Part shown: piece by piece, positions 1,444 to 56,170 of the stretch
Layout: every line of letters begins with the position of its first letter
How positions within the stretch are numbered: position 1 is the first letter of the stretch
Source of the DNA: Azolla caroliniana
Lineage: Eukaryota; Plantae; Polypodiophyta
DNA: 64,000 bases
Assembly (NCBI GenBank): GCA_043228905.1
Contig: JBHGNT010000004.1
Location: forward strand, 15,376,001-15,440,000
Direction: 5' to 3'
The notes under the pieces: generated by a model
What the model saw: only the letters and a program-made list of their open reading frames with translations
Databases searched by the model: none
What the model was told of the DNA's origin: nothing
Made by a program: the position numbers and the translations under genes

Positions 1444-1524
1444 GAGAAACAGCTACGAGTGAACATGGGCATCACAAAACTACGGCAGAAAGTTAAAGAA
1501 CACCAAGCGATAGTAGGACAAAAG
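1444..1524 (+). CDS. CCT: CCT internal exon
   Basis: EKQLRVNMGITKLRQKVKEHQAIVGQK; cag|...|gtatg. Confidence 0.9.
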
Positions 1525-3670: not shown

Positions 3671-3699
3671 ATCATGGGAAGTTGCGGCATCATTGGTTT

Positions 3700-24575: not shown

Positions 24576-25649
24576 AGCTCTATAGCTATGGCGGTGGAGA
24601 GAAAGATGAGAGAGAAGATGACAAAGAAAGAAGGAATTCGGCCTAATAAAGAACGAGGTAAAACGCGAGGTTTCTGGTTCACTGTGCTTTTCGATTATTC
24701 GACGACACTGAACAATGACTGTCACACAAGGAAGGAGTGAGATTGGGAAAAAAGAAGAATATTTTACCAAGAAACAAAGATGATGAGCAAGGAGAAGAAA
24801 TGGAACCCATTAATGCATAAGGAGAATCAAAGCCTTCGAAATTGAGGAGCAAAATGGAGTTATGATATTTGCCGATAGGGGCCGTGGTTGAGATGTAGTT
24901 ACTTGTTAGTGTCTATTTGTTCAGATAATTGTGTGGGTTAGGTCGATGTAACCATGTAGTTTTGAAGGGACTCAAACGAGATATATTTGATGTTTGTAGC
25001 AAAGATGTGTTAAAGATAAGGATTTGAACCCATGACCTCATGTTGATACCTTACCAAGATAATAAAGTAATGAAAATCTACCAAAACATAGTATTTTTTG
25101 ATGAAGATAGATAGATAGATAGATAGATTTTGAATGTTCCTCAGAGACCTATGCGATGTATGAGGCAAGATACATAGATAGATAAATTTTTTTATCATCT
25201 TCGACGGTCAAATATGACCTATGGGACAAATTTATAACCTTTTCATGTAGTACATGTGAAAGTGAGGAGAAACTCATAATGTTCAAGAACTTTACTAATG
25301 AATGTCGCAATCCAGAGTGCGCACTCTGACTATGAGAGGAAATCATACAAGGTTTGGGTTTGGTCGAGAAAGTGTGTAAAGCATTTTATCAATGTGCGAT
25401 ACTCATACTCTCAAACTTGTATAGCGCAAACTATGCATGGTCAATTATTCTCATCAATTGTGCCCCAACGCACTATCTCACAACCTAGTGAGTTAAGCTA
25501 AGTCACATGGAAGCAATGGTTCAGAAGGCAAATAATGGGATGGGCTCTTAACATGTATTGATGTTTGTGGTTTCCCCATTCAACAAAGAACATGGTTTTG
25601 TAGTTTTTTGTAGATCGCTGCAACATATGTACTATTGGGCTAAAGATTG

Positions 25650-28600
25650 AGTGTAAGGCCGAAAAGAGCAGAAAGTGCGGCATAATCGAAATGCCGGAAG
25701 CAATTCCGAACCCTCCAGAAGCAGGGGGAGTCATAACGCCGCCGGAAGCCGGCAAGAGAAGGCCGCGACGGAATGTTGGTACTGTGGCAAGAAACGCCAC
25801 AGGGAGAGCGAGTGTTGGAAGAAGAGAGCTGATTCGGACAAAGCCGAATCGAGTAGAAGAGACGCAGGAAGGCGTCAGAAATCGCACTATGCCGAAGGCT
25901 TCAAACGAGCCGGAAATGGATTGGGTCCAACCTTTGTAATGAAGCACAAGGCCAATTTGATGGCCGTGAACACCTCGACATCAAGCGAGGTGTAGTATGT
26001 TGATTCCAGAGCGTCAAATCATATGACGAGTCATGAGGAATGGTTCTCGTATTTGGAGAAACCGGAAAAGAAAGGAGTGGTCGAAACGGGAGACCACACT
26101 CCACATACCATCGAACATGTTGGAGAAGTTCCTCTCAGCCACGTCGGGCAGAAAGGGAAACTTATGAATGTGTTGCACGTCTCGACAATAACCAAGAACA
26201 TGGTGTCGGTTGGTCAGATCGTCGATCAGGGGATGCAAGTTCGATTCACGCACCTCAGGTGCTACATCAAAGAGGAAGGCCAAGTTATTGCGCAAGGGCG
26301 CCGTGAAGGGAGGATGTTCATCCTCGACACCAATCAAGCCAAAACCGCGTTGTTCGCGAAAGGACAGAAGGTCGAGTCGGACATCGACCTGTGGCACAAG
26401 CGGTTCGGCCACGTTAACTTCCCATGGCTTCGTGAAATGCAGACGAAGAACATTGTTTTTGGTTTGCCGAAATTTCGGGGTCGTAATGGCCAAGTCTGCG
26501 AAGCTTGCCAACTAGGGAAGCAGCAGCGACTTCCGTTCCCAAACGAACGTAATCGGAGTCGAAATCTGCCCGACTTAATCCATTCGGATGTATGGGGACC
26601 GGCACAGAACGTGAGTCTCGATGGAAGCCGTTACTTCGTAACCTTCATCGATGACTTCACTCGGCACACCTGGGCATGCTTGATCGCGAAAAAGAGCGAA
26701 GTCTTCGTGTGGTTCTTGAAGGTGAAGAACCTTGTGGAAAGGGAAACTGGGCGTAAGATCAAGTGCCTACGGTCCGATGGCAGGAAGGAGTACTTCTCCG
26801 ACCAGTTCACGAGTTATCTATAGAAGGAGGGAATTCTATTCGAATTCTCGTGTAGATATACGTCGGAGCAGAACGACGTATCCGAGTGGAAGAATTGGAT
26901 AATCGAAGAAGCGGTCAGGGCAATGCTTGAAGAGAAGCATATGCCGTAAGGACAATTGTTTATTTGCAGAATCAAATTTCTACTAATGGAGGAGTGTTGC
27001 CACACGAGTTTTATTTCAGAAAGAAGCCGAACTTGGCATACTTGAGGATTTTCGGCAACATTGCGTATGTGCATGTGCCGAAGGAGAAGAGGAGGAAGTT
27101 CAATGCCAAAGCCGAGAAGTGTATCTTGGTCGGCTATTCAGACGAGCAGAAGGGGTATAAGTGCTATAAACCCCGAACAAAGGAAGTTCGCGTAAGCCGA
27201 GATGTCGTATTCGATGAGTCCGCTTCATGGTACTTGCATTCACCCCCAATACCTCATGACTCCATTCCGAATTCTGAAGAAGAGATCAGTGAGGCCGAGT
27301 TGCCTCCACGTGATGAGGAAATCGGAGCTCTAACACAAAGTCCGATCTCATTTCGGCTAAGCGGGCCAAATGAGGAGTGGGCTGAGATGGCCAACCAAAT
27401 GAAGAGCCGGCGAGTAGTGGAGACTCAGCAGTGTTGTCCCCACGTAAAGAACCGAGGAGACGGTTTACGCGTTGTCGTGAAAAATCCGTCACTACGTGCA
27501 GATCGTGAGGCGGAACTGCCGGGGTCCTGGACCAGAAGGATTCGAAGTTTGCACTAGCTTTAACGAGAAAGGGTTTAAGATAGATTGAGGGAGATTGAGA
27601 TTAAACCCTTGACTTTATATTTGAGAGACAAGATACATCACCATTAGGGTAACTTGTTATTATTATTATTATTATTAATTTCTTCCCCAATTTTTTCATT
27701 AGTCCCTACTTGTTTGATTCCTCCATTCTTTTATAAATGCCCCCATGTGTATGATGCATATGAGGGTACAAGGCATGCATGTAATGCATGAAATGCATGC
27801 GATGCATGTTTGCCATGTCACTCATCCAAGCTCTCATGTATGAGATTTTACATATCAAAACTATAATAAAAGTATAACTCTAAAGTCATGACTTAGCTTA
27901 GTGGTAAGTCATTTGTCTCTTATGGAGGAGGTGCAAGGTTCAATTCTTACTTACACCCCCATAAACACAAAATTTTACAAGGCTTTAGTCTTGTATTTAC
28001 AAATGTTTAACTGCATATTACACCTTCAGTTGACCTTCGATGGAACAGTTAGACAATTTTGTTCGTTTCACACCGAAAGATCTTCAAGACACCGTGCATC
28101 GCGATCAACCTATTCGACCGACCCGACCGATCCGTCTGTCCAGTCCCATATGTCTATTACGGTTCCTGTTCCAACCATCTGGTCTAGTGTCGTCCGTCCA
28201 TCCAGTCTGGTTTCGTCGTGCGGTCTGGTGTGATCCGAATTCGTCCAAAACACTATTTGAATAACTTGGACGCATCCATTCGTCCAAGTTATACAACACA
28301 AGCTTTTTGTGCTCCTAACACATAGATAAAATATATAAAGATATGGCTCTACTTATATACTCTTGAATCCTGATGTTGTCCTATCTATGTGGGATATCTT
28401 ACAGTTTTGTTTTCCTCTTCTTCTCAAACTTTACACTCACATAACTTGACACTAAGTTGTTTGTTTCACATGTAGTAAAATGCATTCAGAAGCTCTTGAA
28501 GACATCCATCTTTTCGTACCAAGATATTCAACTAATATAAAATAGTATCTTCACTATTATTGTTTCATATTGTGTGTGAAGAACTACACTCGATTTTGTA

Positions 28601-31290
28601 CATTCCATGCAAATTTCACACCGTTGTCGAAAATCTTCACGACAACGTAAAGAAAAAGGGAAGAAGAAAATGTCAAAATATGATTTCGGTAGTGCCGAGT
28701 TAGATTAGAGCGAAACTGACTTCGGGCCAATCGAGAAGGAACCTTCGCGGAAGGGGTCAAAATCAACCGAAAAGGTTGTGAAATCGGGTAATCACGAATT
28801 ACGTTGATCCACCCGCTTGAAGAATCTCGTAAAGAGGTACGGGTACAATGAATACATGGCGCACCATTACGCGTACATGACACGAGTGGCGAAAGTGCGT
28901 GAGCCGAAGAGCTACCCAGAAGCAACGGAAAACGCAAACTAGTGTGCCACGATGGAGGAAGAGATGCGTGCATTATCAGACAACGAGACTTGGGACCTAG
29001 TTGACGCACCTAAAGGTGTTAAGCCGATTGGATGCAGATGGGTGTTTAAAGTGAAATACAACACCAACAACTCGATCAACCGATATAAGGCCCGTTTGGT
29101 TGCAAAAGGCTACGCGTAGAAGCACGATGTCAATTACGACAAGACCTTCACACCTTATGCGAAGATGACTACCGTGCAAGTTCTGCTAGCCGTAGTTGCG
29201 GCGAAGGGGTGGCATCTACATCAGATGGATGTAAAGAATGCGTTCCTACAAGGTGATCTTGAGGAACAAGTGTACATGGTACAACCCCCCGGATTTCTAT
29301 CCGAATAGAACACTTCGGCAATCTACCGATTGAAGAAGGCATTATATGGCCTTAAGCAACCCCGCGAGCTTGGAACACAAAGATTTTGCAACGGTTGCGT
29401 AGAATGGGGTTTACAACGTCCAAATCAGACTCCTCGTTGTTTGTTCGGCAAGGTCGACATGGACCGTTTTGTCTTTTACTTTATGTTGATGATTTAGTCT
29501 TTGCCAATGCTGGCTTGGAAGAAATCGACCGTGTAAAGTCTCAGCTTGCGGCATCGTTCGAAATGAAGGATCTTGGAGATCTTCATTACTTCCTCAGGAT
29601 CGAAGTGATCCGTTCCCCTGAAGGCATCTTGATCAGTTAGTGTTATTATGCGCTAAATATGCTCTTCAAGTTCAGGATGGCAGATTGTAAGCCCATCTCG
29701 ACCCCTCTGGATAGAAACATAAAGCTTCGCCAAGATTCGGGAAATGCGTGCGACCCGACACGGTTTCAATAGATTGTCGGAAGCCTCATCTACTTGACGA
29801 TCACTCGGTCGGACCTCAACTATCCGGTCAGAATGATCAGTCAATTTATGTTGCAGCCCACGACCAAACACCTTCAGTGCACGCAAAGGATATTACGATA
29901 TGTCAGCGGCACTAAAGACATGTCGTTGTTGTATCATGCAGACGTAGCCGAGCAGTTAGTTGACTACACGGATGCCGATTGGGCCGGAAATGCCCACAAT
30001 CGTAGATCCACATCCGGATATGCATTCTCATTGGGAAGTGTGGCGATTGCATGGAGCAGTAAGGAGCAGCCGACAGTAGCACTGTCGAGCACTGAGGGCG
30101 AATATCAAGGGGCGACTGTCGCTACGTGCGAAGTCATTTGGCTGAAACGGTTATTACGAGATTTGCACGTAGAGGTGTCCTATCCAATGACGATCTACTG
30201 CAACAACCTCAACATCATCCACCTTGCGAAAAACCCTATATTCCACACTCGAACCAAGCACATTGAGGTGCACTACCATTTTGTCTGTGAGTGTGTCCAT
30301 TCTGGTGAAGTCGAATTGGCGTATGTTCCAACGGGTTCGGCAAATTACTGACATCTTCACCAAGCCCCTTGGTTTCGACAAGTTACGACATTTCTCGGTT
30401 GATCTGGGTTTGCGGCACCTCAACACACCAAACTTGAGGGGGAGACAAGAACAGGAACAGGAGTGTGAAAGGAGTGGTAGTAACCACGATGTTGAATCGG
30501 ATGAAGAATTCGATTTCGGATCAGCTGAAGAAGCCGAAGAAGAAAACAAGGGTCATAATCGCAAGGAAGAGCCGAAGACAGCCAAACAAAGGGGAAACAA
30601 AGCCAAGAAAGGCATAAAGGCCAAGACTAAGACATGGTCGGATGTAGTTAAGGGCCTGAAGACAGAAGACGAATTGGAGACAACCAATTTGTGTGAAAGC
30701 GGGAATGAATCGAAAATGTTCGATTCGGATACGCCAAATCAACTGAGGGCCAAGCGGAGAAAAGGGTAGTGAAAGTGGCACCAACACCGCGATAGCAAGG
30801 GAGTTGAGAAAGGTCGCATGAGCAGACAAGCCGACCAGAAGGGTCGAAGCGCGCGGAATTGAACAGGTCGAGGAGCGCGAGCGAGGCATGAAGCCAGGAG
30901 AGGCCGGAGCAAAAATCTGGAAAACCATATGGAACCTCAAGTTGAGCTTGAGGGGGAATGTTGAGAGACAAGCTCAACATTGGGAGCGTAAACGGGTACG
31001 TAACCCAGTACGTAAACTGGGTGCGTAAAACCGTGAGCAAAATATGGTCGTAGTGGTATGTAAACCTAGAGGGCGTTAGAATGTTATTCCTCGTAAGGAA
31101 TAATTTTGGGGGTAAGAGTAGGATGCTCATTTATGAGTAGTCAGGTACTGTAAGTACTTGTGTCAGCCCGATAGTCAGGGCTTGTATAAAAGGTGCTCTC
31201 TAAGCACTAAGTATGTACATAGAATTATTTTTGAATATAGTTATGTTTTCTGCCCTCTCTCTTCTTCTTCTTTTTCGTAAATCAATGTTT
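25650..31290 (+). mobile_element. 5'-truncated Ty1/copia ('family X' copy 1) with a solo-LTR insertion
   Basis: CWYCGKKRH.ESEC zinc knuckle, LWHKRFGH, HSDVWGP, RT and RNase H fragments; 3' LTR starts 30959 after PPT; homologous to 41100-52296. Confidence 0.9.
27473..28644 (-). mobile_element. Solo LTR of a Gypsy family related to 37869-56170
   Basis: TGTCGTGA...TCACGACA termini; 4-bp TSD GCGT/ACGT restoring the host RRxTRKEKGKK frame; shares the CATG-rich and tRNA-like blocks with the Gypsy LTRs; strand inferred from that homology. Confidence 0.85.
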
Positions 31291-33095: not shown

Positions 33096-35256
33096 GTTAA
33101 TAATTTGGTAATTAACTAGGGTTAATTCGTCACTAATTATGTGAGTAGTTAAGCAGCGGAACGTTATGTGATATGTGTGTGTATGTGAGTGAGAGGAAGA
33201 GAGAGAGATAGATACACTTATGAACAATAATATAAATGGGGGATGATTAACGAGAGTGTATATTAAAAAGCATCATCCAATACAAAAATACCCACAATGA
33301 GGTATATATACATCTCATGTGCAAATGTGCACATGTGTGAGTAGAATATAGGTACAAAGGTGTAAGTCCTATATTAAATGAACATGGGAGTGGAGGATCT
33401 ACAATGTATCCCACTCAAGTACAAAATTCTATTTGAGGCTTTAAGGTCAACACACTAACTAGATTCTATCTAGGTAACTACTAAGTTATTTGTGTTGACT
33501 AACTAACTAAATCTAGTTGAGCTTGATATCTCAACAAGGATGAAAAAAATCGGGCTTCTGGAATCGCTTCTTGTTGGCCACCTTGGACGGCCAAGTGGGA
33601 AAGGTCACGAAGTTGAAAAGATAAAAGGATGATTACGGCAAGTGAAGAAAACGGATGGGGGCGTAGCGTAGTGAAGAGGAAGTAACAACCGTAGCTTAGG
33701 GCCAACCAGAGTGTAGTTAAGGAAAGTAATGGTTCACGCGCTGAGCGTAATCGTCCATGACCTTGTATATAAAGGGCATGGAAGACTTGTAAAGAGCTAG
33801 TGATAATTTTGTATTCAACATCTGAAATATAGTTTTTGATTGCTTCACTCTCTGTGTTCTCGTAGCTATTCGATCTATTCGTGTCGAGTTTATCTTCTCT
33901 GTGTTGAGCCATATACGCTGTGTGTGCTAGTGTGTAAGGAGTCGGTTGTGGCCGTCTTCTTAGTCTTCATGGTTAAATCAACACTTACAAGTCTAGGTTA
34001 TAGTCAACTGTATCACGATTACTACTTACTCTCCTATTCTTGAACCATGACTCCCTTGAAGTTGAACCCCGAAGAACTGGGGATTCGACGCAGTGTGTCA
34101 CCTTAACCAATAACACTTTTGGCACACCCAGAGATTTGTGACAAGCACAACTGAACATTAGGGAATGGATGTTGTCTAGTCGTAGAGGCAACAAAGAAGC
34201 CAATCGCAGAGCTAAACCCCAGACTCGGGCAAAATCCCGAAAGGCGGCGGAACTTGCCATGGAAAAGCCACGCCTCGACACACGCGTACCGGATCTCGAT
34301 GAAAGCGTGTTCGAGTCCTCGCTCACCGAGCAGAGCACGAGTGGTCAGGAGGTTCTTCTCCCCACTGCACCCGGTTATTAAAAGCACTAGTAGCACTTGT
34401 GAGACAAACCTCCCACCACTTCCGACTGAACCCGCCTACGACAACTTTAGACGATATACGTGCACAACCATGGCCTTCTCTTATCCTTATTACAATGGTG
34501 AACTCGATGCCGAGGCTCACGCACAATCTTTTCTTAACGTCTAGAATGCAAACCATGCGGCTACCAGAGGTCGATGCCAACGTCTCTAAGATCGCGGAGT
34601 TCGGGCTTACTCTCGATGGACAAGCAATGCGGTGGCATTTGCAGCTCGATCTCTCGACTTTCACGACGTTCGATCAGCTTTGCATTGCATTCCTTCGACT
34701 GTTTCATTGGAGTATCCCGCAACACAAAATCATTGGTCAATTCTACTCTATCCGGTAGTTCAACCAGGAATTATTCGCCGATTTCGTCATCCGGTTCTAG
34801 AACTTACGAAGCTAGCTCACGCGGGCACCCACCGAGGATGAGGCTAAGGAAACTTTCCTCGCCGCTTTGTGCCATCCGCTGCAACACGCGGGCTGACTAC
34901 CATATTTGCCATTCTCGGGCACATACAATCAACCAATGCGAGTACAACCTTTTAAATCGACCCTTGATGCCGGTTCGGCGTATCGAACCACAAAGTAACA
35001 ATTGGTAGCCCAACAATCGATTTTGACAGGACGAGCGTTATCGAAACGCGGACTGGAATCGGCGTAATGACGAAAATGACCGAGATAGTTGAGATGATGA
35101 TCAATATTGGGACGATGATGATCAAGAGGAAGATGACTATCGTCCGAACGACCGGTTTAACAACCACGGGGGGTGACACTACGAGAATTGACGCTCCACG
35201 AATAACCGAGGTTGGCAAGCCGAAACATGATGTACGAAAGGGATAGACAACCATGT

Positions 35257-36382
35257 TGTCGTGAAGATCCGTCACTATGCGCGGATCGTGAGGCGGAACC
35301 GTCGGGGTTCTGGACCGGAAGGATTCAAAGTCGGTACAAGCTTTTCGCGCAAGCTTTAGCAAGAAAGTACTTAAGATAGATTGGGAAAGAGAGAAGTTGA
35401 GATTCAACGATTGAGAGAGATTGATTGAACTTTTATCTTTAGATTTAAGAAACAAGTTACACAATCAGTTTGATAACGAATTTCTTCTTCTTAATTTCAT
35501 CACAAAAAAGAAACGTTTTTTCTCCTCCCCCTTCCTTCTTTTATAGATGCTCTCATGCATATGATGCATGTGAGGGTACAAGACATGCATAAAATGCATG
35601 CTTGCCATTTGGCGCTTATGTATTACATGTGGTGCATGATAACCATGTCACTCATTTTAGCTCTCATGTATGAGAATTTACACATAAAAGTACAATGATA
35701 GAAATATAAATTCAACTAAATGGCATGGCTTAATGGTAAGCCAATTGACTCCTAACTCGGAGGTGCAAGGTTCGAATCCTTACTTGCCCTCCTTGTATAT
35801 GTATATATGTATATATATTTATATATTTATTTATATAGTCGCCGGACTCCGGTTCGTCGGATGCCGTCGGTTACCGGTGCCTCGCCGGATGCCGTCGTCT
35901 CACCAGCGCCGGATGCCACCGCCTCGCCGTCGCCGGATTGCCGTCGGATGTCGGTGTCTCACTGGCGCCGGATGCCACCGACTCCATCGCCGGTCCGGTT
36001 TTGGTTGGCCAAAACCCTTTACGAGTAGCTAGCCCACCTCCACTCTTAGTTCAAGTTACCTTGAACTCTCTATGCTCCACACATAGACACAAAGATAATA
36101 TCTTTTGCTCTACCTTATATTTGATGAGAGCCGTATTTGTCGTGCCTATGTGGGATATCTCACAATTTTCTCTTTTCCTTTCACAAACTTTATACCCTCA
36201 TTTCTTGACATTTAGTTGTCCGTTTCACGTGTAATAAAGTGCATTCGAAACCTCCATCATTTTGTACTTAGATATTAAATTTATTTAAAATGTTATCTTC
36301 ACAATTATTGTATTATGTGATTCATACTCGATTTTGTACGTTTTATGGGATTTTCACACTATTACCGAAAATCTTCACGACA
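35257..36382 (-). mobile_element. Solo LTR, same family as 27473-28644
   Basis: TGTCGTGAAGA...TCTTCACGACA; TSD ATGT/ACGT; collinear with 27473-28644 except for the central cassette. Confidence 0.85.
35719..35790 (+). promoter_or_regulatory. tRNA-like Pol III type-2 promoter module inside an LTR
   Basis: A box TGGCTTAATGG 35726-35736; B box GGTTCGAATCC 35769-35779; D-arm GGCTT/AAGCC and T-arm AAGG/CCTT pair; no good acceptor or anticodon stem. Confidence 0.7.
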
Positions 36383-36868
36383 ACGTAACCATTCGTCCCG
36401 CGACAATAGTTCGGAGGACGACCGACGTCATCCCTAGAATAAAAATCATTGTGATTACCTCAGGAAGCCCCAGAATACGCGATAACATCAGTATCAACAA
36501 CGACCTCGGGATGAGCCTGTGCCACCACCTGAGCTCGTCGCTCCACCCACAACAAAAAAAGGTGAGTCCATTCTACATTGTTTTATCTGTCAACAGCCAG
36601 GGCATTACGCGACTTAGTGTCCACGACACGATAAGGGCAACAGACCGGTGGTGAATACGATCACGACAGAAGTACAACAGGTGACCACTTGTAGCCAGTC
36701 AAAGGCAAGCGAGTGGGAAGTACAAGATGACATAAGAAAAGAGGCGAAAGCCTATCTAGAAAAGCCAATGAGGCCAACATTGATCGCATGCGTTAGGATG
36801 CGTTAGGACGCGGCAGTCGAGGCATCATTGTCCCATACGAAGGACACTATGACGGGTGAGGATCTGGT

Positions 36869-37302: not shown

Positions 37303-37656
37303 GTTTGAATCCCTTGAAAAGGACCAAGAAGGTTACAAGTATTTATACTGTGAGTCGAAGTACATGCAGTAGAATATTTTGGAGAATATTTGGGAGAATA
37401 TTGTAGAACCCTCTAGAACCTTCTAGTTCTAGAACTTTCTATAAACTCCTAGAACTTCAAATAGATAATCTACTAATAATCTACTAAGATATAGATAACA
37501 TGACCATATATTTGGATGTGTCGGAACACAACACCTAACTATATATGTCAAGAGGTGAAGAGTTCAAATTTTGACATGATTGTTGACATGTCTGTGACAT
37601 TATCAAAAGCGTGGTGTAGGGGTGAGCTAAAAGAGAAAACCAAAGTACGTTGAGGA

Positions 37657-37868
37657 GTGAGTGACCATGAGCAATCCTCACTAGAAATTAGAGCACGTTT
37701 GAACGTGAGCGACCATATGTGGTCCTCACCGGAGACTAGAACACCAACGGGTGTGAGAGACCATGTACGGTCCTCATCGGAGACTGGAACACCAATGTGA
37801 ATGTGAGCGACAATGTACGGTCCTCACCAGGAATTGGAACACCAACGGGCATGAGCAACCATGTAAGG
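37657..37868. repeat. 48-bp minisatellite, left part (split by the Gypsy insertion)
   Basis: Unit GTGAGCGACCATGTGCGGTCCTCACCGGAGACTGGAACACCAACGGAT, about 4.4 units. Confidence 0.92.
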
Positions 37869-40800
37869 TGTCGTGTTGATCTTGGCGTACGAGAGCAAAT
37901 GAAAAGAAAATTGCGTATCTGGGAAGTAAGCACCGGGCTTCTTGTCAAAGAAAGAGGAGAAACAGAAATAACTTGTATTGATATTTGATGATGATTACAA
38001 AATATTTCTTGTAAAATAATATAGCTTGTTCCTCCTATTACAATAATATTCCTCATCTCCTGTTCTCCCCCTCACTCTTTTCCCTTTCCCTCTTTAAATA
38101 GGTGTCCCCATGCATATGATGCATGTGAGGGTACAAAACATGCATGTAGTGCATGGAATGCATGTGATGCATGATAGACATCCCACACATTTGAGCTTTC
38201 ATGTATGAAAATATACATGGCATAAGTACAACATTAAAATACAAATTTTAAAGAACAATTGACCTAGCCTTACGGTATGTGCCTTGTGTTTGGTATGTGA
38301 GGTTGTGGGTTCAAGTCTCTCGAATGTTTTTCAATACAATATTTTAGTTTATTTTTCTATTGTGAAGCAAACCCTTCACGACACCTAAACCCCCTTGACG
38401 CTCCTATTCATTGAGGTCTCACACTTTATATAACCTTTTACAAAGATTTGAATAAGCTCATATAAATTGGTAGAAGTTATTTTCTCATCGTGGCATGGAA
38501 ACGTCACGACATCCTCCCCCTCTAGACCTGCGCATCCTCTAGCATGCACCAACAAATGTCTCCTTCTTCAGCTTCATGGATGTCATCTTCGTTGAGGAAG
38601 TTAGTGCTTTGATCTTCCCTTCTCTTGAATAGCTTAATTCGCTTTCCTGCAATTGGTAACTTTAAAGCAACTCCATCTATTTCAATTAGGAAATACGTTG
38701 CATTTTTATTCACTTGTCTAATGATATATGGCCCGAACCATCTTTTAGCAAATTTGCGACAAGTACTATGTTGGTTATCCAAGATGCTATCATAAACTAT
38801 GACCCAATCACCTTGGATCTTTCTTGGTCGAAGGCGATGGGTTTTATCAAATCTTTCTTTGTTCCGTAGTCGACATTGTTTCATCCTTTCCGTAGCTATT
38901 TGAACATCTTCATCCCTTCTTTCTAGCTGTCTTATTCTAAGAGCAAGCAAATATTCTCGACTCATTTCATCTGCCCATGGCAAGGAAACCTAGGAAAATA
39001 CTGTTTTCTCTACTGGCATAATTGGCTTTTGACCAAGTATCAATTTTGATGTCATAAAGCCAGTTACGGAACTGCGAGTAGTGCGGTCAGCCCATAGTGC
39101 ATATGGTAACAGATGAGGCCACTTAGCTATCTTGCCATCACAAGATTTCACCAAAGCTTTTACTATAGGGCTATGTCCACGCCCAGCCTTCCCATTAGCT
39201 TCAGGGTTATATGCCGTAGTTAAGGATAGTCGAATTCCCATTCTTGAAAAAAATTGTTCAGCTTCGTTAGAATCTAGTTTTCCTCTGTCTGCAAAAATCT
39301 TCCCAATGCACCCATACCTACATATCACATCTTCAAGAAGGAACTTACAAACAACTGAAGTGGTTTTTTGGCGTAGGGCTCGACCTTCCACTTGATTTGT
39401 CAAATCTTCTCTTGCCAATACAAGATATCTCATTTGCTAAACCCCCACAGGCATCATTACAATATCCACAACCCATTTATAATGTAGAGATAAAGAATAA
39501 ATAGGTTGCAACCCATCACAATGCCAAATATTCGAATACATTTGGTAGTTCTCACATGATTGTACATAATCTGCAACATCATTGTACACTCCAACCCACC
39601 AAAACTTCTCTTTTAATTTCGAGTAGGTGGCCCAAACTCCACGATGACCTGCCCATAAAGTATCATGAAATTCAAATATTAGTTTTTGTTGCTCTTCCCT
39701 TCTTCCAACCACTCTTTGCGGAATCCATTTCACAACTTTTGGATGTCTCCAAAGATATCCCTCATGAAGAAAAAATTTATAAGCTTTCTTTCTTATTTTA
39801 TGAAATAGCTCCCTTGACCATGTTCCATCTTTCTCATGAGTACTCAAGTATTTTCCAATTTGTAACATCTCCCCCTCGTACTCAGATTCACGAAGAATAA
39901 CATGAACACCCAAATCACATGACCCCTTCAAGTTACAATTTATGGAAAAGAAATCAAAACTCTTATCTTCTTCATTAGTCATTCCATAATATTTCTACCT
40001 TTAAACCTCGCTCTTGAGAGCATATCGGCAACTAGGTTATCCGTTCCTACAATGTGCTTGATTTCAGGACATAGTGATTTTATGTAAGCTATCCATCTAA
40101 GCATAGCTATATAAGATGTTTCACAACTTGAAATCATTTCTAACAATGGACGACAATCTATTTCAACCACAACTTCAGCACCAATTAAGTATTCATGATC
40201 TGTTTTAATAGTTGTTAACATACCCCATAACTCTCTTTTAATCTGTGGGTAATCTCTTTGGCGTTCTGTTAAGATTTTTGTACCAAATCGAACTACGTAT
40301 CTCAACCCATCCTTCTCTTCTTGGCTAACAACCCAACTGATCCTGATTGGACTTGTATCCACAGTAACAATGATGGGGTGTTCACTATCATACCTAGCGT
40401 TCCGTAAAACAGGGGCATTCAACAACATTTCCTTTAGTTGGCGAATTGCATCTGTATGTAAATTAGTCCAAAGGAAACTTGAATTCTTCTTAAGCAACCC
40501 ATAAAGCGGATCAACCACATGTGCGAAATGTGGAATCCAAATTCGGTAAAACACACAAGCACCCAAAAACCTACGCACTTTTGTTAGAGATTTACAATCA
40601 TTTTGAATTGTATTTACCTTAATTGGGGATGGCTTTCTTCCGTAGGGCCCACACATATGCCCTACAATCAGAACTTCGGGAACCCCAAACATAGATTTTT
40701 GACCTGAAAAGGTAAGATGAACCTCTTCTAACCTTGAAAGGATTCTTTCACAAGCATCAATGTGGTCTGCAACAAACTTTCTACATCCGTTCGCCATGAG

Positions 40801-41099
40801 TTTTTCATCCTTCTTATTCATCGAGCATCCTTTAATTGGAACATCATCTAGAAAAGGCATAGTTATTTTAGGCACAAAATCTCTTAAAATTTTATTCATA
40901 GCATTCACCATATGTGCCACTGAATTTGTAGCACCTTGAGGCAATGTACACATTCGCATCAATCCAATTGGTGTTCTTATAGTAGTTATATCACGACTAT
41001 CAATAGCAAGCTGAAATTGATCATATCCTGAATACAAATCACACATAGAATATATAGCTCTTCCTGCGAAAGCTTCTGCAAAGGCATCTACAATCGGTC

Positions 41100-44004
41100 T
41101 GTTGAGATACAAGCTCAACATTGGCCGAATCGGCTGTGCAAGCCGAGAACCGGATCGGTTGGGACCGATTAGTTAGGTTGGACTGGTGTGTAAAACGGAT
41201 GCGTAAACCGGTACGCAAACCGGTGCGTAACGAGAGGCCATATCAGTGCGTAAACCGAAAGGCCATTAGAGAAATATTCCTCGTAAGGAATAATTTTGGG
41301 AGTGAGTGTCGAGGCTCATTTATGAGCAGTCAAATACTGTCAATACTTGTGTCAACCCGACTGTCAGGGCTTGTATAAAAGTGCTCACTGAGCATATCCT
41401 ATGTACAGAGAGTTAGTATTTCTTGAATTGAGTTTTTGTGTGTGTTCTCTCTCTGTCTCTCCCGCGTACTGTGTATACTCAAGCTCTCCATTAAACCTGC
41501 GTGTTTTCTATGTGTTTGGTTTTCTATTGCTTCCGCACATAATCTTTTACATGGTATCAGAGCGCGAGGGTTGAGAACCTCTGCAGTCGACATAGCTTGA
41601 AAAGAAAAACCAACCAAGAAGAACAGGTAAAACCGATGGATAAAGGCATGGCTAGCTCGCTTCCGACGGAGAAGCTCGACGGAAACAACTACGCATCTTG
41701 GTCCTACAAGATGCACCAGTACCTGCTCGGACACGGTTACTGGAGCTATGTTGATGGAGCAAATGACACAGCACCCGATTCGACACACAAAGACTTCCCG
41801 GCTTGGGAACAGTCGGTGAGCAGAGTATTGTACTGCTTCGCGTCTTGTGTGGGCGAATAGCTCCGGAGCTATATTCGGGATGCGAAAACGCCAAAGGATG
41901 CTTGGGGAAATCTGAAGAAGATCTTCGCCGCAAGCACCACAGCCAGGAACCTTCAACTCCGATAGGAGTTGAGCAATTTATGACAGCGCGACTTGTCAGT
42001 GGCTGATTACACCTCGAAGATCAAAGATATATGTGACTCTCTATCCTCTATTGATGTGAACGTCGAGGAAGGCGAGATGGTGCAAATCGGTCTTGGGGAA
42101 CTGGTGTCGAAGTTCAGAGTGTTCCGAACTGCTGTGTGCACACGGGAGAATACGCTGTTGTTTTTCGACTTACAGTCGATGCTCCTTATAGAGGAGAACC
42201 ACGCGGGTGCGTCGATGAGCACGCATGCCGACAACAAGATGCTGTACACAAAGGGAGATAGGCCCCGTGGTCGTGGCGGATGAGGCGACCCGGTGTGCAA
42301 TGGAGGCGGCCGACGGGATCAAGGAAGAAGACACCAGAGCGATGCCGACAGCAATTCCAGACCCTTCGGAAACAGGCGGAGTCGAGGCGACGAGAATCGG
42401 CAAGGGAAATCTGCCACGGAATGTTGGTAATGTGGCAAGAAAGGCCATAGGGAGAGCGAGTGCTGGAAAAAGCGTGCCGATTTGGAGAGAACCGGGTCTG
42501 GATCAGGTTCCGGACAGACCGATAAGGGTAATCGGTAGCGATCGCACTACGCTGAAGGATCCGGAAAAGGGTCAGCCTTCGTGAAAAGACACGAAGCGAA
42601 CTCGATGAAGAAGTCCACTCCGAAATCAGACGAGGTGTGGTACGTCAACTCCGGCGCGTCAAACCACATGACGTGCCACGAGGAGTGGTTCTCATACCTT
42701 GAGAAACCGACGCAACCGGGAGTAGTCGCAACCGGAAACGACACTCCGCACCTGATTGCGAATGTTGGTGAAGTTCCCTTGAGCCATGTCGGGCAGAAAG
42801 GGAAACTCATGAATGTGTTACACGTCCCGACAATCACAAAGAACTTGGTGTCGGTCGGGCAGATTGTCGACCAGGGGATGCAGGTTCAGTTTACGCATCT
42901 CGGGTGCTTCATCGAGGAAGAAGGCTGAGTTATTGCGCAAGGGCGCAGAGACGAGAGGATGTATATCCTCGACTCTAGCAACAATGGCACCGCAATGTTC
43001 ACGAAAGGACAAAAAGTTGAGTCGGATATCGACTTATGGCATAAGCGGATAGGCCACGTCAACTATCAACGGCTTTAGGACCTGCAATCGAAACAGGTGG
43101 TGTTCGGATTGCCCAAATTTAGTGGCCAGAAGGCACAAATTTGTGAAGCATGCCAGCTAGGGAAGAAACACTGACTTCCCTTCCCTAACGAGCGTAATCG
43201 GAGCCAGAACAAGCTCGACTTGATACATTCCGATGTATGGGGGCCGACACAGAACGTTAGTCTTGGCGGGAGTCGATATTTCGTCTCTTTCATCGACGAC
43301 TATACGCGGCACACGTGGATCTACCTCATCGAGAAGAAGAGTGAAGTCTTTGATTGTTTTCGGGACCTCAAAGGGTTTGTGGAAACGGAAACAAGACAAA
43401 AGATCAAGTGCTTGCGGTCAGATGGCAAAAAAGAGTATTTTTCCGGTTAGTTCAACGGGTATCTACAACAGATGGGAATTCGGCATGAATTCAGTTGCAG
43501 ATACACGCCGGAGCAAAACGGCATGGCCGAGAGGAGGAATCGGTCAATTGTAGAAGTAGCATGGGCAATGCTAGAGGAAAAGAGCTTGCCCAACTTCTAT
43601 TGGGCCGAGGCGGTACGAACAATGATATGTTAGGAAACAGGTCCCTCCGGACGGGATGACCTGGTGAGAACCAGATGACAAGTACCCGGCAAGAGCTGGA
43701 TGATGAAGACCTGGTGAGAACCGGATGATGAGTGCTCGGCAAGCGCCGGATGAAGGAGTACCCGGAAACGGAAGACCCGGTGAGAACCGGATGATGAGGG
43801 CCCAGCAAGCGCCGGATGATGCAGGCCCGGTGAGGAGTGCTCACCGGATGGAGGGACATATTCGTAAATATGTTTTCTGAAAGTCCATCGGGGCTATATT
43901 TGTAAATAGCCGAAAAGTCATATTAGTATAAATATGACTTAGGGCAAACTTAGAGATGTGGTTGTCATTCTTGTTGGTGCTAGATCAGAGAGCGCGTAAC
44001 AGTG

Positions 44005-44038
<34 letters not shown>

Positions 44039-47000
44039 GAGGTCGTTGCCTCTGTTGTAACCGCCGCCTATGGCGAAGATCGTGAGCACGAGGTCGTTGC
44101 CTCCATAAGCTCACTGTTGTAATCATTGTGATATAGTGATAGTTTGGAGTTTGTGAACTCCCGTGGTTTTTCCCTCTTAGGGTTTTCCACGTTAAACATC
44201 CTGTGTACTCTTCTCTCCTTTGTGTCGTGCGTTCATTATCCGTTTTCTGTGTTTGATTTTAGACTCGGTTGTGGCCGAGCGTTGTTCATCAGAGCATGTA
44301 GTTCCTGTCAAAGTGGTATCAGAGCGAAACGACACAGAAGATGGACGAATCGTTGGGCGGCATGTTCAAGCTCACCGGCTCCAACTATTCAGTGTGGAAG
44401 TCGAAGATGAGGGACATGCTCGTGGTTAAAGGTCTTTGGTTGCCGGTTCAGTTCGGGGACAAGAGACCGGACAAAATCGACGCCACGATATGGGAGGTGA
44501 TGCACATGAAGACAACGGTGTACATACGGTGCTTCATCAACATGAGCCTATACAACAACTTCAATGAAGAGAGCAAGGCTCATGAGCTCTGGGAGAAGAT
44601 CAACATTATGTTTCAGAACAAAAATGCTGTTAACCAGGTTTCGGTATTCCAGAAGCTAGTAAGACTCCGGTACCAAGATGGCTCCAGCATGGTGGAGCAT
44701 ATGAATGCCTTCCAGGGGATGATACACCAGGCAACATCATTGGAAGTACCTCTCGCCGACGAGGTACTAGCGCTACTCCTACTCGATTCCCTCCCGGATA
44801 GCTGGGAGACGTTGGTTGTCAGTTTGGGCAACGCCGGGCCGGAAGGGAAACGGTTATCCCTAGCAAGAGTAAAGTCGAGCTTGCTAGATGAGGAGGCGCG
44901 TCAGAAAGATAAGGATATGAGCTCCGACTCCAAAGCACTCCTTACCGAATCGGAACGTGGAAGACAAAGGAACCATAGTCTCCAGAACCGGGAGAAGTCG
45001 GGGACACGGTCAAAGTCAAGGGGGAGGCCTACTTGCTTCTATTGCGGCAAGCCGGGACACTTCTAGAAGAACTGTCGGCATTTCCGAAAAGATAAGGAAA
45101 CCGACGGTACCAATTCGAAGCGGACACCGAACCGGAACGGTAAAGACCGGAGGGGGCCGGACCGGAAGGGAATGACGGCAATCACGGCAAGTGAAGAAGA
45201 GTTGATGCTCATCACCGAGGAGAGTGAGCTAAACCTTGCCGGCGACAAGACGACTTGAGTGGTCGACTCCGGAGCGTCGTTCCACCTTACCCCGAACCGG
45301 AAATGCTTCTCATCCTACTCAGCCGGTGATCACGGCTGTGTCCGGATGGGGAATGAAGGTACATGCCGAATTGTTGGCATAGGAGACGTGTGGTTGACAA
45401 CGCCAACCAGATGCAAGCTTCTACTGAAGGATGTCAGACACGTTTTGGAGGTTCGACTAAACCTGATATCAGCCGGTCGGCTAGATGATGAAGGCTACAC
45501 GGGTAGCATCCAGAACGGTGTTATGAAGTTCAACAAAGGGAGCCTGATTGTGGCTCGGGCCCTGAAGGTCAACACACTGTACCTGATGAATTCCCGGTTA
45601 TGTCTGGAAGAAGTGAACGTGGCATCCGACACTGCCGGTGAGCTGTGGCACAAGAGGCTGTGTCACATGAGCGAGAAGGGGATGAAGAGGCTTGCAGACG
45701 ACAACCTCATTCCAGTGAAGAACGTGCACTTGGAGAAGTGCACTGATTGTCTGGCCGGAAACAAAACTGGACCTCCTTCCGATCGAGGCCACCGATGAGA
45801 CGTAATGCGCCACTGGAGTTGGTGCACACGGATGTGTGTCAAGTGGACATGAAGTCACATGCAGGATCGCAATACTTTGTGACGTTCATAGATGACCACA
45901 GCTGGAAGTTGTGGGCCACATTGTTGAAGACGAAGGATTAGGTGTTATCCGTCTTCAAAGAGCTCCATGCGAGAGTGGAAAGAGAAACTGGCCTGAAGCT
46001 GAAGGCGGTTCGAGCAGATAACGGAGGGGAATACCGGGGGCAGTTCGAGGAGTACTGTCGCTCGAAGGGAATCCGGCTCGAATTTACTGTGCCGAAGACG
46101 CCGGAACTAAACGGGCTGGTCGAGAGGATGAACCAGACCATAATGGAGAGGGTTTGGAGTATGCTGGCACATGCAAAACTACCCAAGAAGTTTTGGGCTG
46201 AGGCACTGTCGACGGTGACATATGTGATAAACAGATCACCCTTTAGTACCCTTGGACTGAGACACGCCATAAGGAGTCTGGACCGGTAAGGAAGTGTCGT
46301 ACCGACATTTGAAGGTATTCGGGTGTCTTGCGTACGTGCATGTAGCTAAGGACTGGAGAGGAAAACTAGATCCGAAGACTCAGCCATGCATATTCCTCGG
46401 TTACGGCGACGATGAGTTCGGCTACCGAGTGTGGGACCTGGTCGACAAGAAGGTATTCCGGAGTCGAGATATTATCTTCATGGAGGACAAGATGCTCGCC
46501 GACTGGGAGTCGGAGAAGAAGATAATGAACTTTGAGTCGACCGGTAAGGATCGATTCTACGATGAGCAGACCCAACCGGCAAGAGACAGGTTAACACTCG
46601 AGGAACCAGCCGGTTACGGTGAGGATACCGAACTGGCAGAAGAAGAAGTAGAGGAAGCTGAAACCGGAACTGGCCAAGACCCTGAATCGGATTCGGATGA
46701 AGAGGAAATGGAGGAGCCGGTTACCGAAGCCCAAAGACAGAGATATCCTCTCAGAGAGAGAAGTGCCCCCCAGAGATTTCCGGATGCAGAGCATGTGCTG
46801 CTAACCGATGAGGGGGAGCCAGAAAGCTTCGAAGAAGCGAAGGATGACACCCACAACCGAAAATGGTTGAGTGCCATGCAGGATGAGATGGATTCCCTGC
46901 ATGAGAACCATACGTACGAATTGGTGGAGTTGCCGAAAGGAAAGCGGGCACTTCGAAACAAGTGGGTGTACAAGTTGAAACCGGGAGATGCCGGCAACCC

Positions 47001-52296: not shown

Positions 52297-55200
52297 CGGT
52301 CTAACACTGACATTTCGAATAGTAACTCTATTGACAGGCTGCAAATCCTAAATGAACCTTAAAGAACCGTTCTTTTTAGGTACAATAAACCACTTATTCG
52401 AGCAGGGGGCATTTGATGGCTCCAAGATACCCATTTCTATTTTTTCCTTAAGCAAAGCTATTACTTGTGGTATTTGGGCCCAAGGAACATGGATAAGCCT
52501 TAAATTCCAAGGAATATGCGGAACTGTAAATATAATCATTGGTTCCATAATTGTTGGGTCTACACAACCAATTTCACTAAATTCAAATGCAAATGCTTTC
52601 CCATGACTAGCAATCATATTTCGAAAACATTGTATCTCAACAGGCAAAAGAAAATCATTCTCACCAATTTTTAGTTGATCTAGAGTAGCATTTGTAAACT
52701 TATGACCAATATCCTTAGAATCCCGCAATGTTGGCTCAAACGTGACATTCTTTTTATTTCCATACTATCCATAGGTAGATGCATGGCCACAGGCATTGAC
52801 CTTTTTGTCTATTGTTTTATATTTAGTGTTAACTTTTATTGCATAGTTATTTTTACTTGCTTTTTTAGTATTTTCATGATAGCTATTGCCAACTATTTCA
52901 CTATTAGCTATACAACCATTTTTTTCAATAAAATCAGCAATATGAAGGTACATATCAACAGAATTTACATGAACAAATCTCTTGTCACATTCTTTCTCAT
53001 TCGAGCAATTTTCTAATATTTTGATTGTATCCACATTTGAATATTCAAGAAGCATACAAGAAATTATGTCATCCCTTTCAATCATCCCTAAAGTGCACAA
53101 TGCATCCAACATTTTCATGCTCCCTTTATTTTGTTTATGACTTTCCACACCAAAGTAACAGGTAAATCCATCCATTGTATCAGACAAAGTATTGATTGTT
53201 TTATTAATTGGAAAACATTTTTGCAAGGAAAGAAAAGCTTTGGGACCATTGTGTCCTTGCCCATCAATGATCCTATTTAAACATCTGACTCATAAGATGA
53301 CGTATCATGCTCACATGAGTTAATTCGTAATTCTTCTTTATTTCTATCATGCTCCTACCTAACAATAAGAAATTGAACACTTCTTTTACCATCGGTAATT
53401 CGAATCCTAGCATATGTTGAACCATCTTCAAGGTGTCCATCCTAGAAGATGTGATGTATGGTTGAGACCAAGAGTCACTGGGTATGGCGAGGTCTTTTGG
53501 ATAAAGAAATGTTGCTCCATTAGAACATCTCCAATGGTGACTTTGATGTTTGGGCAAGCTCCATGAAGTTGCTTGGTCGTTGAATTAGCCGACTTTACCC
53601 TCCACCCATGATTTGTTTCCATTGGCCATCCGTTGTTCCTATAAATATCATAAGAAATTAGATTAATTTTGAGCCATGGTCAACTAAGGACACGACCGGA
53701 TCTTCAAGGTTTCCAATCTTCATGGGTGTCTCAGTTGTTGCTCTTGCCCAATGTTTCTTAGCATAGTAGCTTTTTAGCTCTTTCGGCTTCTCTTCGGAGG
53801 TTGTTGTCGCAATAGCTTGTGTACCAACAATGGAAGAGCTTGGTTCACCTTTGAGGACTTCCGCCGTTGCTTTCTTTACTTCACTTCGTGGGTTTTCGGT
53901 GACTTCAATACTTTGTCGTTTTCTTTTAATTCCATCTATTATTGCATCATGAAATTCTTTTTTAGATATGCCCAAAAGTTCCCTCAAGGAAAGTTCCACT
54001 TTGCTATCTAAAATTCTTTCTTCCAATACTTTTTTAAAATCAGTTGAAGCTTCAATATCAGATAATAATTTGAACGAGGGACTCTTCTTATCCTTACCTT
54101 TTTCAATGTCAGGGCTTACCATTTTTCGACTTTTTGTCTCCCTCTTTTTAGCGCTTCTTAGCTCCCTCTTCTTGTTATCTTCCTTTTCTGCCCATTTCCG
54201 TTTCTCTTCGATGATCACTTCATGGGCTTGGGTTGTTGCAATCTTCGCGAAAGCTGAGAGGCCATCCACTGGGTCTTCTCAACTAGTTTTGATTCGGACA
54301 ACATCACCTCCAGACTTCAACTTTTCAAACTCGATTTTACCCTTTCTTGCAGCTTTCAAAATACACGGCCAAAATTCAAATTCAGATCCTCCTTCACCAG
54401 CATGGACGACTGTAGTTGTTGGTTGATAGACAACTTGTGTCCTAGTTATTTCCGCGTCTTCGATGATCCTTCTCATACCACCTCTTCTAAAGTTAGTTCG
54501 GAGAGGTAATTGAGTTTTAGAAGAATGAATCTTACCATCTTTGAAGAATATCACCCCTCTTTTTATCGCTTCTTGATAGTTATCACACCCTCCTCTTGAA
54601 TGGTCGACGCTATCACACCATATGCATCTTCTTTCATAATCTTTTTGGGGTTGTGAGGATTTTTCTTCTTGTAACTTTGCAACATGTAATGAAAGATCTT
54701 TTATATCTTTGATAAGATCGTCCATCACTGTTTCTGGTACCTTGGAAATAGTTGACGGACTCCTAGTATCCTCCCTGATGGTTGTCTTCACTTCATCTTT
54801 CATACCTTTGGCAATCGAAAGATCCTCACACCATTTGACTCTAGTCCAGTGGGTGTAGTCCAGTCTTCAAGGAATGCAACTAATTTTTCTCGATAGGATC
54901 GGTCTAATGCCTTCAAGAATAATATGACCTTCTCTTGTTCCAAAAGAGTCCTTTCGGTCGTCGTTAATTGATTATAATGAGCTTCAAACTCTTTCAACAA
55001 CTCCATCACCGAAATCTTCTTGTCCTCTTTGTCCACCCAATCCAAGAAACTTCTCCTTGATGCTCGGATTGTATCACCAAGCATGTATTCATTTAATAAA
55101 GCTTGCTCAAATGCAACCCAATCATTAGAACTTGTTGCGAGTTCAGAGACTCTATTTCTCAAAGGGAGTTCAACCGTCCTCACAAAATTCATTTGAACAT

Positions 55201-56170
55201 CATGTTGATTTAATCCTTTACTACCCATCTTAGTAACATATACTTGTAAGAATTTAGTTATATTTTTATCTTCAAAGAGACCTATTTTCTCTACAACCTT
55301 GTCAATAGCATGATCAATTCGTTGAAGAGCAGTTGCCCGTTCTTGGCTTTGCATCATTCTTTCAATCATTTGAAGCACCACGTTGATTTGTGGCTCCACA
55401 ACGACTTCTTGGTTGATTCGTGGCTTTGAGACTGCTTGTTGGATCTCCATCTCTCTTAACTTCCCATTTCACATCAGGTTCACCATTGTCACGTCGATCT
55501 CGAAGTACGAGAGCAAACGAAAAGAAAATCGCGTATCTGGGAAGTAAGCACCGAGCTTCTTGTCAAAGAAAGAGGAGAAACGAAAATAACTTGTATTGAT
55601 ATTTGATGATGATTACAAAATATTTCTTGTAAAATAATATAGCTTGTCCCTCCTATTACAATAATATTCCTCGTCTCCTGTTCTCCCCCTCACTCTTTTC
55701 TCTTTCCCTCTTTAAATAGGTGCCCCCATGCATATGATGCATGTGAAGGTACAAAACATGCATGTAGTGCATGAAATGCATGTGATGCATGATTGCCATT
55801 TGGCGTTCATGCATTACATGTGATGCATGATAGACATCCCACGCATTTGAGCTTTCATGTATGAAAATATACATGGCATAAGTACAAACATTAAAGTATA
55901 ACTTTTAAAGAACAAATGACCTTGCCTAATGGCAGTCTGTGCCTTGTGTTTGGTATGTGAGGTTGTGGGTTCAAGTCTCTCGAATGTTATTCAATAAAAT
56001 ATTTTAGTTTATTTTTCTATCGTGAAGCAAATCCTTCACGACACCTAAACCCCTTGACGCTCCTATTCATCGAGGTCTCACACTTTATATAACCTTTTAC
56101 AAAGATTTGAATAAACTCATATAAATTGGTAGAAGTTATTTTCTCATCGTGGCATGGAAACGTCATGACA

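What the first reader, a model, noticed from the sequence alone, without database searches (positions are those of the whole stretch)
35719..35790. tRNA-like Pol III promoter module built into the LTRs of a Gypsy group
Seen: all four LTRs of this group carry an A-box/B-box pair at tRNA-like spacing (43-46 nt start to start) at the same position. They are TGGCTTAATGG/GGTTCGAATCC (35726/35769), TAGCTTAGTGG/GGTTCAATTCT (27894/27937), TAGCCTTACGG/GGTTCAAGTCT (38265/38308) and TTGCCTAATGG/GGTTCAAGTCT (55922/55968). The boxes persist while the sequence between them has diverged strongly and LTR length differs (about 650 versus 1150 bp). The module lies in U3, upstream of the TATA box and antisense to gag-pol. 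Known: A/B boxes recruit TFIIIC, tDNAs can act as chromatin barriers, and Cassandra TRIMs carry 5S-derived Pol III promoters in their LTRs. Inference: a protein-coding Gypsy lineage maintains a tRNA-derived TFIIIC/Pol III cassette, perhaps to insulate its promoter from heterochromatin or to make a short antisense RNA. I do not know of this being described for plant Gypsy LTRs.
Basis: partly seen in the sequence, partly recalled or inferred. Interest (0 to 1): 0.8.

Follow-up and report, generated by a model that had tools for sequence, protein, structure and literature searches.

The report
Backwards tRNA promoter in Phygy LTRs
One branch of protein-coding jumping genes in a seed-free plant (likely a fern) carries, back to back with its own promoter, a worn tRNA-like piece that no longer folds as a tRNA but mostly keeps the bases of a tRNA-gene promoter, so it likely served as a docking site for the RNA polymerase III factor TFIIIC, although many copies have damaged it and no binding has been shown.

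Summary
The four A/B box pairs are real, at the stated places, and are the only such pairs in the window (0.5 expected by chance). They lie in the likely U3, antisense, in LTRs of a Phygy-type Gypsy (NCGN 4-bp target duplications, tRNA-Trp primer site). Two LTRs are solo LTRs, so the window holds three insertions, not four. Fourteen further LTR copies, picked by a neighbouring block and not by the boxes, show the module is family-wide. It keeps tRNA register but no cloverleaf. Across 14 copies the 11 key box bases change less than the rest of the module (p about 0.01). Among the 10 unbiased copies this is not significant (p 0.14-0.25), only 2 of 10 keep both boxes strict, and a young open-gag lineage has B-box C56T. 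The adjacent CATG block is conserved as well or better. There is no fixed terminator, the module does not track the primer tRNA, and two other Phygy-like LTRs lack it. Best reading: a captured tRNA/SINE head, likely kept as a dispensable TFIIIC site (0.5); neutral relic 0.3. It resembles Helenus but is antisense and in an autonomous element. The scan noted similar LTR-borne tRNA relics on other genomes.

The parts
35719..35790 (+). tRNA-like module in solo LTR B (tRNA positions 1-72 by register; no acceptor stem)
35726..35736 (+). A box (tRNA positions 8-19), strict consensus in this copy
35769..35779 (+). B box (positions 52-62), full GTTCRANNC match
35673..35725 (.). AT-rich stretch upstream of the A box; would be the TFIIIB seat (inferred)
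35554..35672 (.). CATG-rich block between TATA motif and module; best-conserved of the LTR stretches compared
35539..35545 (-). TATA-like motif of the LTR's Pol II promoter (predicted; start site not mapped)
35257..36382 (-). solo LTR B, 1126 bp, TG...CA, flanked by ATGT/ACGT
27473..28644 (-). solo LTR A, 1172 bp, flanked by GCGT/ACGT
27894..27947 (+). A box to B box of the module in LTR A
27601..27648 (-). second, more decayed tRNA-like unit on the element-sense strand, downstream of the TATA motif (profile E 0.011 here, 1.8e-4 in L010)
37869..38511 (-). 3' LTR of full element C, 643 bp; boxes at 38265 and 38308
38512..38523 (-). polypurine tract of element C
38525..41097 (-). RT, RNase H and integrase of element C (broken by stops; nested Copia insertions at 41100-52300)
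52351..55468 (-). gag (zinc knuckle, DUF4100) and start of pol of element C, in pieces
55468..55485 (-). 18-nt primer binding site, tRNA-Trp type
55487..56170 (-). 5' LTR of element C, 684 bp, 89% identical to the 3' LTR; boxes at 55922 and 55968

Best explanation
A tRNA-like head, likely from a SINE or a tRNA copy, sits backwards in the likely U3 of one branch of Phygy-type Gypsy LTRs, is copied along with the LTR, and has likely been kept as a dispensable docking site for TFIIIC rather than for any RNA it makes. Shown: presence, position, orientation, tRNA register, loss of the cloverleaf, family-wide spread, and lower change at the key box bases over the deepest split. Inferred: TFIIIC would bind the B box, the A box would seat TFIIIB on the AT-rich stretch that adjoins the CATG block, and this would keep chromatin open on the upstream side of the element's own Pol II promoter, as tRNA genes do at barriers (established for yeast and mammals, recalled). 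The element itself must be transcribed by Pol II from the TATA motif on the other strand. The benefit is likely small or intermittent, as recently spreading copies carry a damaged B box.
For: 9 of 11 key positions (T8 G10 A14 G18 G19 G53 T54 T55 C56 A58 C61; list recalled from tRNA/promoter consensus, contacts partly) are fixed in 14 copies against 10 of 43 other module positions (Fisher p 0.0006) and 18 of 53 AT-flank positions (p 0.005). On a tree built from the flanks alone, changes per site are 0.55 for key bases, 1.91 for the free positions inside the boxes, 1.38 between the boxes and 1.26 in the AT flank (permutation p 0.012): a protein-recognition pattern, not a block. Element C against the other types: B box 72% identical, positions 35743-35759 38%, after the B box 25%. 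A-B spacing is 43 nt in 13 of 14 copies. No variant of 5% or more at any of the 11 key positions in four sequencing runs laid on the module. Best blastn hits in a phage library fall on tRNA genes over about 58 nt in register (E 0.05-0.6, weak).
Against: In the 10 full copies not chosen by their boxes the signal is not significant: 9 of 11 vs 22 of 43 (p 0.065); permutation p 0.25 and 0.14. The two key sites that vary are A14 and C56, three changes each. C56T is in 4 of 10 (L002, L003, L005, L012); L002/L003/L005 are 97-99% alike with almost no other CpG decay, and L003 has an open gag frame and about 30-fold contig coverage, so the change was likely inherited from an amplifying master. Only 2 of 10 keep both boxes strict; 4 more of the 14 distinct loci break off in or before the module. 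The CATG block changes about as little (0.64 per site). The clean result has roughly an 18% chance by itself (24 of 169 places varied; hand arithmetic) and is biased near the adjacent microsatellite. Two other Phygy-like LTRs have no A/B pair.
Confidence: 0.5

Rival explanations
1. Neutral passenger: an old SINE or tRNA fragment landed in U3 of the ancestral LTR and decays slowly; the apparent box conservation comes from few lineages and from picking the window copies by eye.
For: No significant excess in the 10 unbiased copies; C56T and A14G shared by related copies; simple-repeat tails after the module in the long-type LTRs, as in SINEs; a second, more decayed tRNA-like unit in the same LTRs and a lone B-box relic at 25030 suggest such relics are common here; absent from two other Phygy-like LTRs.
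Against: Element C keeps 10 and 11 of the 11 key bases in its two LTRs while sharing only 38-49% with the other types between the boxes; free positions inside the boxes change 3.5 times more than key ones (p 0.002 in all 14, 0.03 in the unbiased 10).
Confidence: 0.32
2. RNA-level role as in Ty3 or HIV-1: in the genomic RNA the module is complementary to tRNA, so the 3' U3 would pair with the D and T arms of the primer tRNA, circularise the RNA and help minus-strand initiation or transfer.
For: Position (U3) and orientation are those of the 3' half of the Ty3 bipartite PBS and of the tRNA-Lys3-like sequence in HIV-1 U3-R (seen only as a citing sentence and a reference title). D-loop and T-loop are the same bases as the A and B boxes.
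Against: The PBS here is a full contiguous 18-mer, not Ty3's 8-nt piece. The primer's 3' 18 nt can be read from the PBS: the module matches the required T-stem strand at only 1-2 of 5 and primer positions 59-72 at 2-5 of 14 in all 14 copies. Non-key positions within the boxes are the most variable, which breaks contiguous pairing with one tRNA. Phage tRNA hits listed were Arg, Lys, Gln and Asn, none Trp.
Confidence: 0.1
3. A Pol III-made antisense RNA, or a U3 hairpin structure, is the selected product: D-arm and T-arm hairpins would be kept for RNA folding, or would pair with the second inverted unit in R/U5.
For: The module folds below shuffles in most long-type copies (z about -2 to -4 on one or both strands, crude shuffle); the D-arm stem keeps 3-4 of 4 pairs in a one-base-shifted register; element C has a T5 run 8 nt after the B box in one LTR; the inverted second unit is significant (p up to 0.045) in 6 of 17 copies tested.
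Against: No fixed terminator (first T4 at +8 to +256); the long T-arm hairpin is absent from element C and L006; the second unit is not detectable in the B and C types; no clear compensatory changes seen by eye.
Confidence: 0.08

Closest known systems
Helenus TRIMs (TRIMp3; Kojima 2024, PMC10886601; parts 1-4 of 6 read, plus searched passages of text and supplement)
   Same: tRNA-derived sequence inside the LTR with conserved TRGCY/YGG and GGTTC boxes and no working tRNA; proposed origin by SINE insertion into an LTR; one plant family (Selaginella).
   Different: Helenus is short (311-1263 bp) and non-coding; in the Selaginella consensus the tRNA-like part reads in the element's sense and is thought to drive the element's transcript. 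Here the carrier encodes gag-pol, keeps a TATA motif, and the module is antisense and upstream of it. The paper expects autonomous elements to use Pol II and did not analyse their tRNA-like LTRs.
Cassandra TRIMs (bioRxiv 10.1101/2023.07.14.548913, searched passages)
   Same: Pol III promoter boxes in LTRs, conserved while the bases between them vary and without large indels.
   Different: 5S-derived A/IE/C boxes, non-autonomous, Pol II promoter replaced; here type-2 A/B boxes beside an intact-looking Pol II promoter, with weaker conservation.
Phygy clade of non-chromovirus Ty3/gypsy (Neumann et al. 2019, PMC6317226; section 9, passages, one supplement row)
   Same: 4-bp NCGN target duplication, tRNA-Trp PBS, polyprotein filling the internal part, no extra domain seen.
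   Different: Described from Physcomitrella; no tRNA-like LTR module is mentioned in what I read; element C without its nested insertions is about 7.1 kb, a little under the 7.7-10.0 kb range.
Ty3 bipartite PBS (PMC5371799, PMC4974528, passages) and HIV-1 tRNA-Lys3-like sequence in U3-R (Piekna-Przybylska et al. 2010, title and citing sentence only)
   Same: tRNA-complementary sequence in U3 of the genomic RNA.
   Different: Those match the element's own primer; this module does not match the primer's stems, and the 5' PBS is complete.

Membership tests
Phygy (carrier element) | 4-bp target duplication with NCGN preference | tested here: met
   ATGT/ACGT, GCGT/ACGT and AAGG/ACAG around B, A and C; clade feature. 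None is a perfect duplication; C's is two changes off.
Phygy (carrier element) | PBS for tRNA-Trp | tested here: met
   The PBS of L003 matches 16 of 18 bases of the insect tRNA-Trp-CCA 3' end printed in the Helenus supplement, compared by eye; C has the same PBS with two transitions. The host tRNA was not obtained.
Phygy (carrier element) | Gypsy domain order, no chromodomain or extra RNase H | tested here: met
   RT, RNase H, integrase in order; Pfam found no chromodomain in 9 frames of C; frames are broken, so a lost domain is not excluded.
Phygy (carrier element) | RT groups with REXdb Phygy references | not testable with these tools
   No reference set. Named relatives are from Riccia, Adiantum and Calypogeia; the tree is unresolved for this row.
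Helenus / TRIMp3 | tRNA-derived sequence with A and B boxes inside the LTR | tested here: met
Helenus / TRIMp3 | short non-coding element | tested here: not met
   C encodes gag-pol; L003 has an open gag frame behind the long-type LTR
Helenus / TRIMp3 | Pol III promoter oriented to transcribe the element | tested here: not met
   The module is antisense to PBS and gag; only the decayed second unit is in sense
tRNA gene | cloverleaf | tested here: not met
   ARAGORN 0 in the window and in 15 loci; Rfam tRNA clan 13 bits at best; acceptor stem 0-2 of 7 pairs
type 2 Pol III promoter | both boxes at consensus and tRNA-like spacing | tested here: inconclusive
   Strict in 4 of 14 copies (2 of 4 window, 2 of 10 unbiased); spacing 43 nt in 13 of 14
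type 2 Pol III promoter | TFIIIC/Pol III occupancy or transcript | not testable with these tools
   No run on record as RNA; contigs cannot show strand or starts
Ty3-type bipartite PBS | U3 segments complementary to the primer's T and D arms, short 5' PBS | tested here: not met
   T-arm part tested from the PBS; the D-arm part could not be tested without the host tRNA-Trp
tRNA-derived SINE | free-standing copies with their own target duplications | tested here: inconclusive
   One weak relic outside these LTRs at 25017-25041; no whole genome held

The most novel reading that the evidence does not exclude
An autonomous plant Gypsy lineage carries its own chromatin barrier: a back-to-back TFIIIC/TFIIIB site that shields its Pol II promoter from silencing, once present on both sides of the promoter (the second inverted unit), with the inner sequence of the module replaced or rewritten in element C while the boxes stayed.
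Probability: 0.25. Interest if true: 0.72.

Novelty: new variant of a known kind. Interest (0 to 1): 0.42.

Why it matters
Pol III boxes in LTRs are described as the promoter of small non-coding elements. An antisense A/B module beside the Pol II promoter of a protein-coding element cannot serve that purpose, so if it is under selection it points to a chromatin use of TFIIIC by a plant retrotransposon, and thousands of LTRs would scatter TFIIIC sites through the genome. Natural intact and broken variants in one family make this directly testable by comparing occupancy and methylation. If neutral, it is one more tRNA relic that can inflate tRNA-pseudogene counts.

Tried and rejected
No whole genome is held, so no genome-wide copy set. 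ARAGORN and Rfam found no tRNA. The host tRNA-Trp gene was sought with a motif in viral and prokaryote contigs: 0 hits, so the isotype of origin is open; phage tRNA hits point to several types (Arg, Lys, Gln, Asn) at weak E-values and only short T-arm hits for element C. Related elements in viral contigs: none. Prokaryote contigs gave 3 contaminant-like loci, one reaching into an LTR, which has no A/B pair in the 967 bp held. No RNA holder listed; X20 (RNA by guess only) has one contig over the module, not taken as expression. Rejected: A and B as a pair of LTRs; a conserved terminator; Ty3-type primer pairing as the main reading. Rows dropped before counts: L015 (99.7% duplicate of L008); L004, L007, L009, L011 were left out of the 14-copy statistics because they break off in or before the module, which favours the conservation signal. 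L003/L005 and L010/L014 may each be one collapsed family seen in two samples. Literature: searches (mostly listings and abstract starts) found no report of an A/B module in Phygy or other autonomous plant Gypsy LTRs; subscription papers and Repbase entries were not searchable, and bioRxiv supplements were closed.

Full report
Observation. The four A/B pairs are present as written. A loose pattern scan of both strands finds exactly these four, 43, 43, 43 and 46 nt apart, against a mean of 0.48 in 60 simulated windows. They occupy the same position in homologous LTRs.

The carrier. The LTRs read on the minus strand. Element C runs 37869-56170, with LTRs 89% identical, a polypurine tract at 38512 and an 18-nt primer site at 55468-55485. 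Its broken frames give DUF4100, RT, RNase H and integrase hits in Gypsy order, split by nested Copia elements. LTRs A (27473-28644) and B (35257-36382) are solo LTRs with near-matching ACGT-type 4-bp flanks. Neumann et al. give Phygy a 4-bp NCGN duplication and a tRNA-Trp primer site in 81% of elements. The primer site here matches an insect tRNA-Trp 3' end at 16 of 18 bases by eye. Named RT relatives are from Riccia, Adiantum and Calypogeia, with Adiantum highest over the first 200 residues (68-73% against 62-68% for Riccia) but no resolved tree position. The host is a seed-free plant, likely a fern. U3 is inferred from a conserved TATA-like motif; no start site was mapped.

More copies. No genome is held. 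A pattern from the CATG block, not the boxes, gave 15 metagenome loci, 14 distinct. Ten span the module; four break off in or before it. L003 links the long-type LTR to a full primer site and an open gag frame 32% identical to C's, so both LTR types belong to protein-coding elements. Four runs laid on LTR B gave 988-6346 contig pieces each, and runs under four organism codes cover the module. Two other Phygy-like LTRs lack an A/B pair, so the module marks a sub-branch.

What the module is. It keeps class I tRNA register from position 8 to 62, and its best blastn matches in a phage library fall on tRNA genes over about 58 nt (weak E-values, several isotypes). It is not a tRNA gene: ARAGORN finds none, the best Rfam tRNA-clan score is 13 bits, and the acceptor stem keeps 0-2 of 7 pairs. 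Simple-repeat tails follow it in the long-type LTRs, as in SINEs. The isotype of origin is open because the host tRNAs could not be obtained.

Is it selected? For: over 14 copies 9 of 11 key box bases are fixed against 10 of 43 other module positions (p 0.0006). On a tree from the flanks, key bases change 0.55 times per site, free box positions 1.91, the between-box stretch 1.38 and the AT flank 1.26 (permutation p 0.012). Element C keeps the B box at 72% while sharing 38% in the middle of the module and 25% after it. No key base varied at 5% or more in four runs, though that alone has about an 18% chance and is biased near the microsatellite. Against: the window copies were chosen by eye for their boxes, and in the 10 unbiased copies the excess is not significant (p 0.065; 0.25 and 0.14). 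Only 2 of those 10 keep both boxes strict. C56T is in 4 of 10, three of them 97-99% alike with little other CpG decay and one with an open gag, so an amplifying master likely carried it. C56 is a TFIIIC contact and C56G abolishes TFIIIC-dependent targeting in Dictyostelium; the effect of C56T in plants I did not find. The CATG block is conserved about as well as the key bases (0.64 per site). The four truncated loci were left out of these counts.

How it would work. The pattern of fixed contact bases beside free degenerate bases fits protein recognition better than base pairing. The Ty3-type reading (U3 pairing with the primer's T and D arms) fits position and strand, but the primer site is already a full 18-mer and the module matches the primer's T-stem at 1-2 of 5 and positions 59-72 at 2-5 of 14. 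A conserved antisense RNA is unlikely because the first T4 lies anywhere from +8 to +256. I therefore favour a TFIIIC/TFIIIB site that faces away from the Pol II promoter and would keep its upstream side open (0.5), with a neutral relic as the main rival (0.32). Occupancy and any barrier effect are inferred, not shown.

Comparison. Helenus TRIMs carry tRNA-derived A/B boxes in their LTRs, and Kojima notes that not a few Repbase LTRs contain tRNA-like parts but analysed only elements under about 1 kb. Cassandra does the same with 5S boxes. Both are non-coding and use, or are thought to use, Pol III to copy themselves; this element is coding, and its module is antisense. My ten literature searches (listed under Tried and rejected) found no description for Phygy or another autonomous plant Gypsy. 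Earlier notes of this scan report LTR-borne tRNA relics or promoters in probably fungal elements on other genomes, one judged a passenger; none matches this sequence, and I did not test them.

Verdict. Real feature, a new variant of a known kind; evidence for function is suggestive and mixed. Interest 0.42. The bold reading, a self-carried chromatin barrier in an autonomous plant retrotransposon, has probability about 0.25 and would deserve about 0.7.

Noticed in passing
window 35554-35672 (also 27744, 38109, 55727 onward): A CATG-rich, nearly CpG-free, partly self-complementary block (7-12 CATG and 4-9 CATGCA/TGCATG per 150 nt) between TATA motif and module is the best-conserved of the LTR stretches compared; CATGCA is the RY motif bound by plant B3 factors (recalled). 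It may be the real control element.
   Followed up: partly
window 27601-27648 (-); L010 1641-1686, L007, L008, L012, L014: A second, inverted and more decayed tRNA-like unit lies about 80-140 nt downstream of the TATA motif in some LTR types, followed by simple repeats; not detectable in types B and C. Old inverted duplication or second SINE insertion.
   Followed up: partly
window 25010-25080 (-): Lone B box with a shortened tRNA-like lead-in, next to a (TATC)n run, outside any LTR I identified.
   Followed up: partly
window 37609-37869 and 56171-56842: Element C is inserted into a 48-bp tandem repeat array.
   Followed up: no
window 41100-52300 and 43628-48991: Two nested Copia elements (LTR pairs 94% and 92% identical) split the pol of element C.
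   Followed up: no
window 34303-35256 and 36383-36654 (+): Solo LTR B interrupts a gag-like frame with a zinc knuckle at 36579 that belongs to another element; no match to C's gag and no Pfam hit.
   Followed up: no
L009 (turned), about 824-1236: A module-bearing LTR is inserted into the LTR of another Phygy-like element whose own LTR has a TATA motif but no A/B pair.
   Followed up: partly
L016, L017, L018: Contigs filed under bacterial genomes encode Phygy-like pol at 58-62% identity to element C; likely plant contamination.
   Followed up: no
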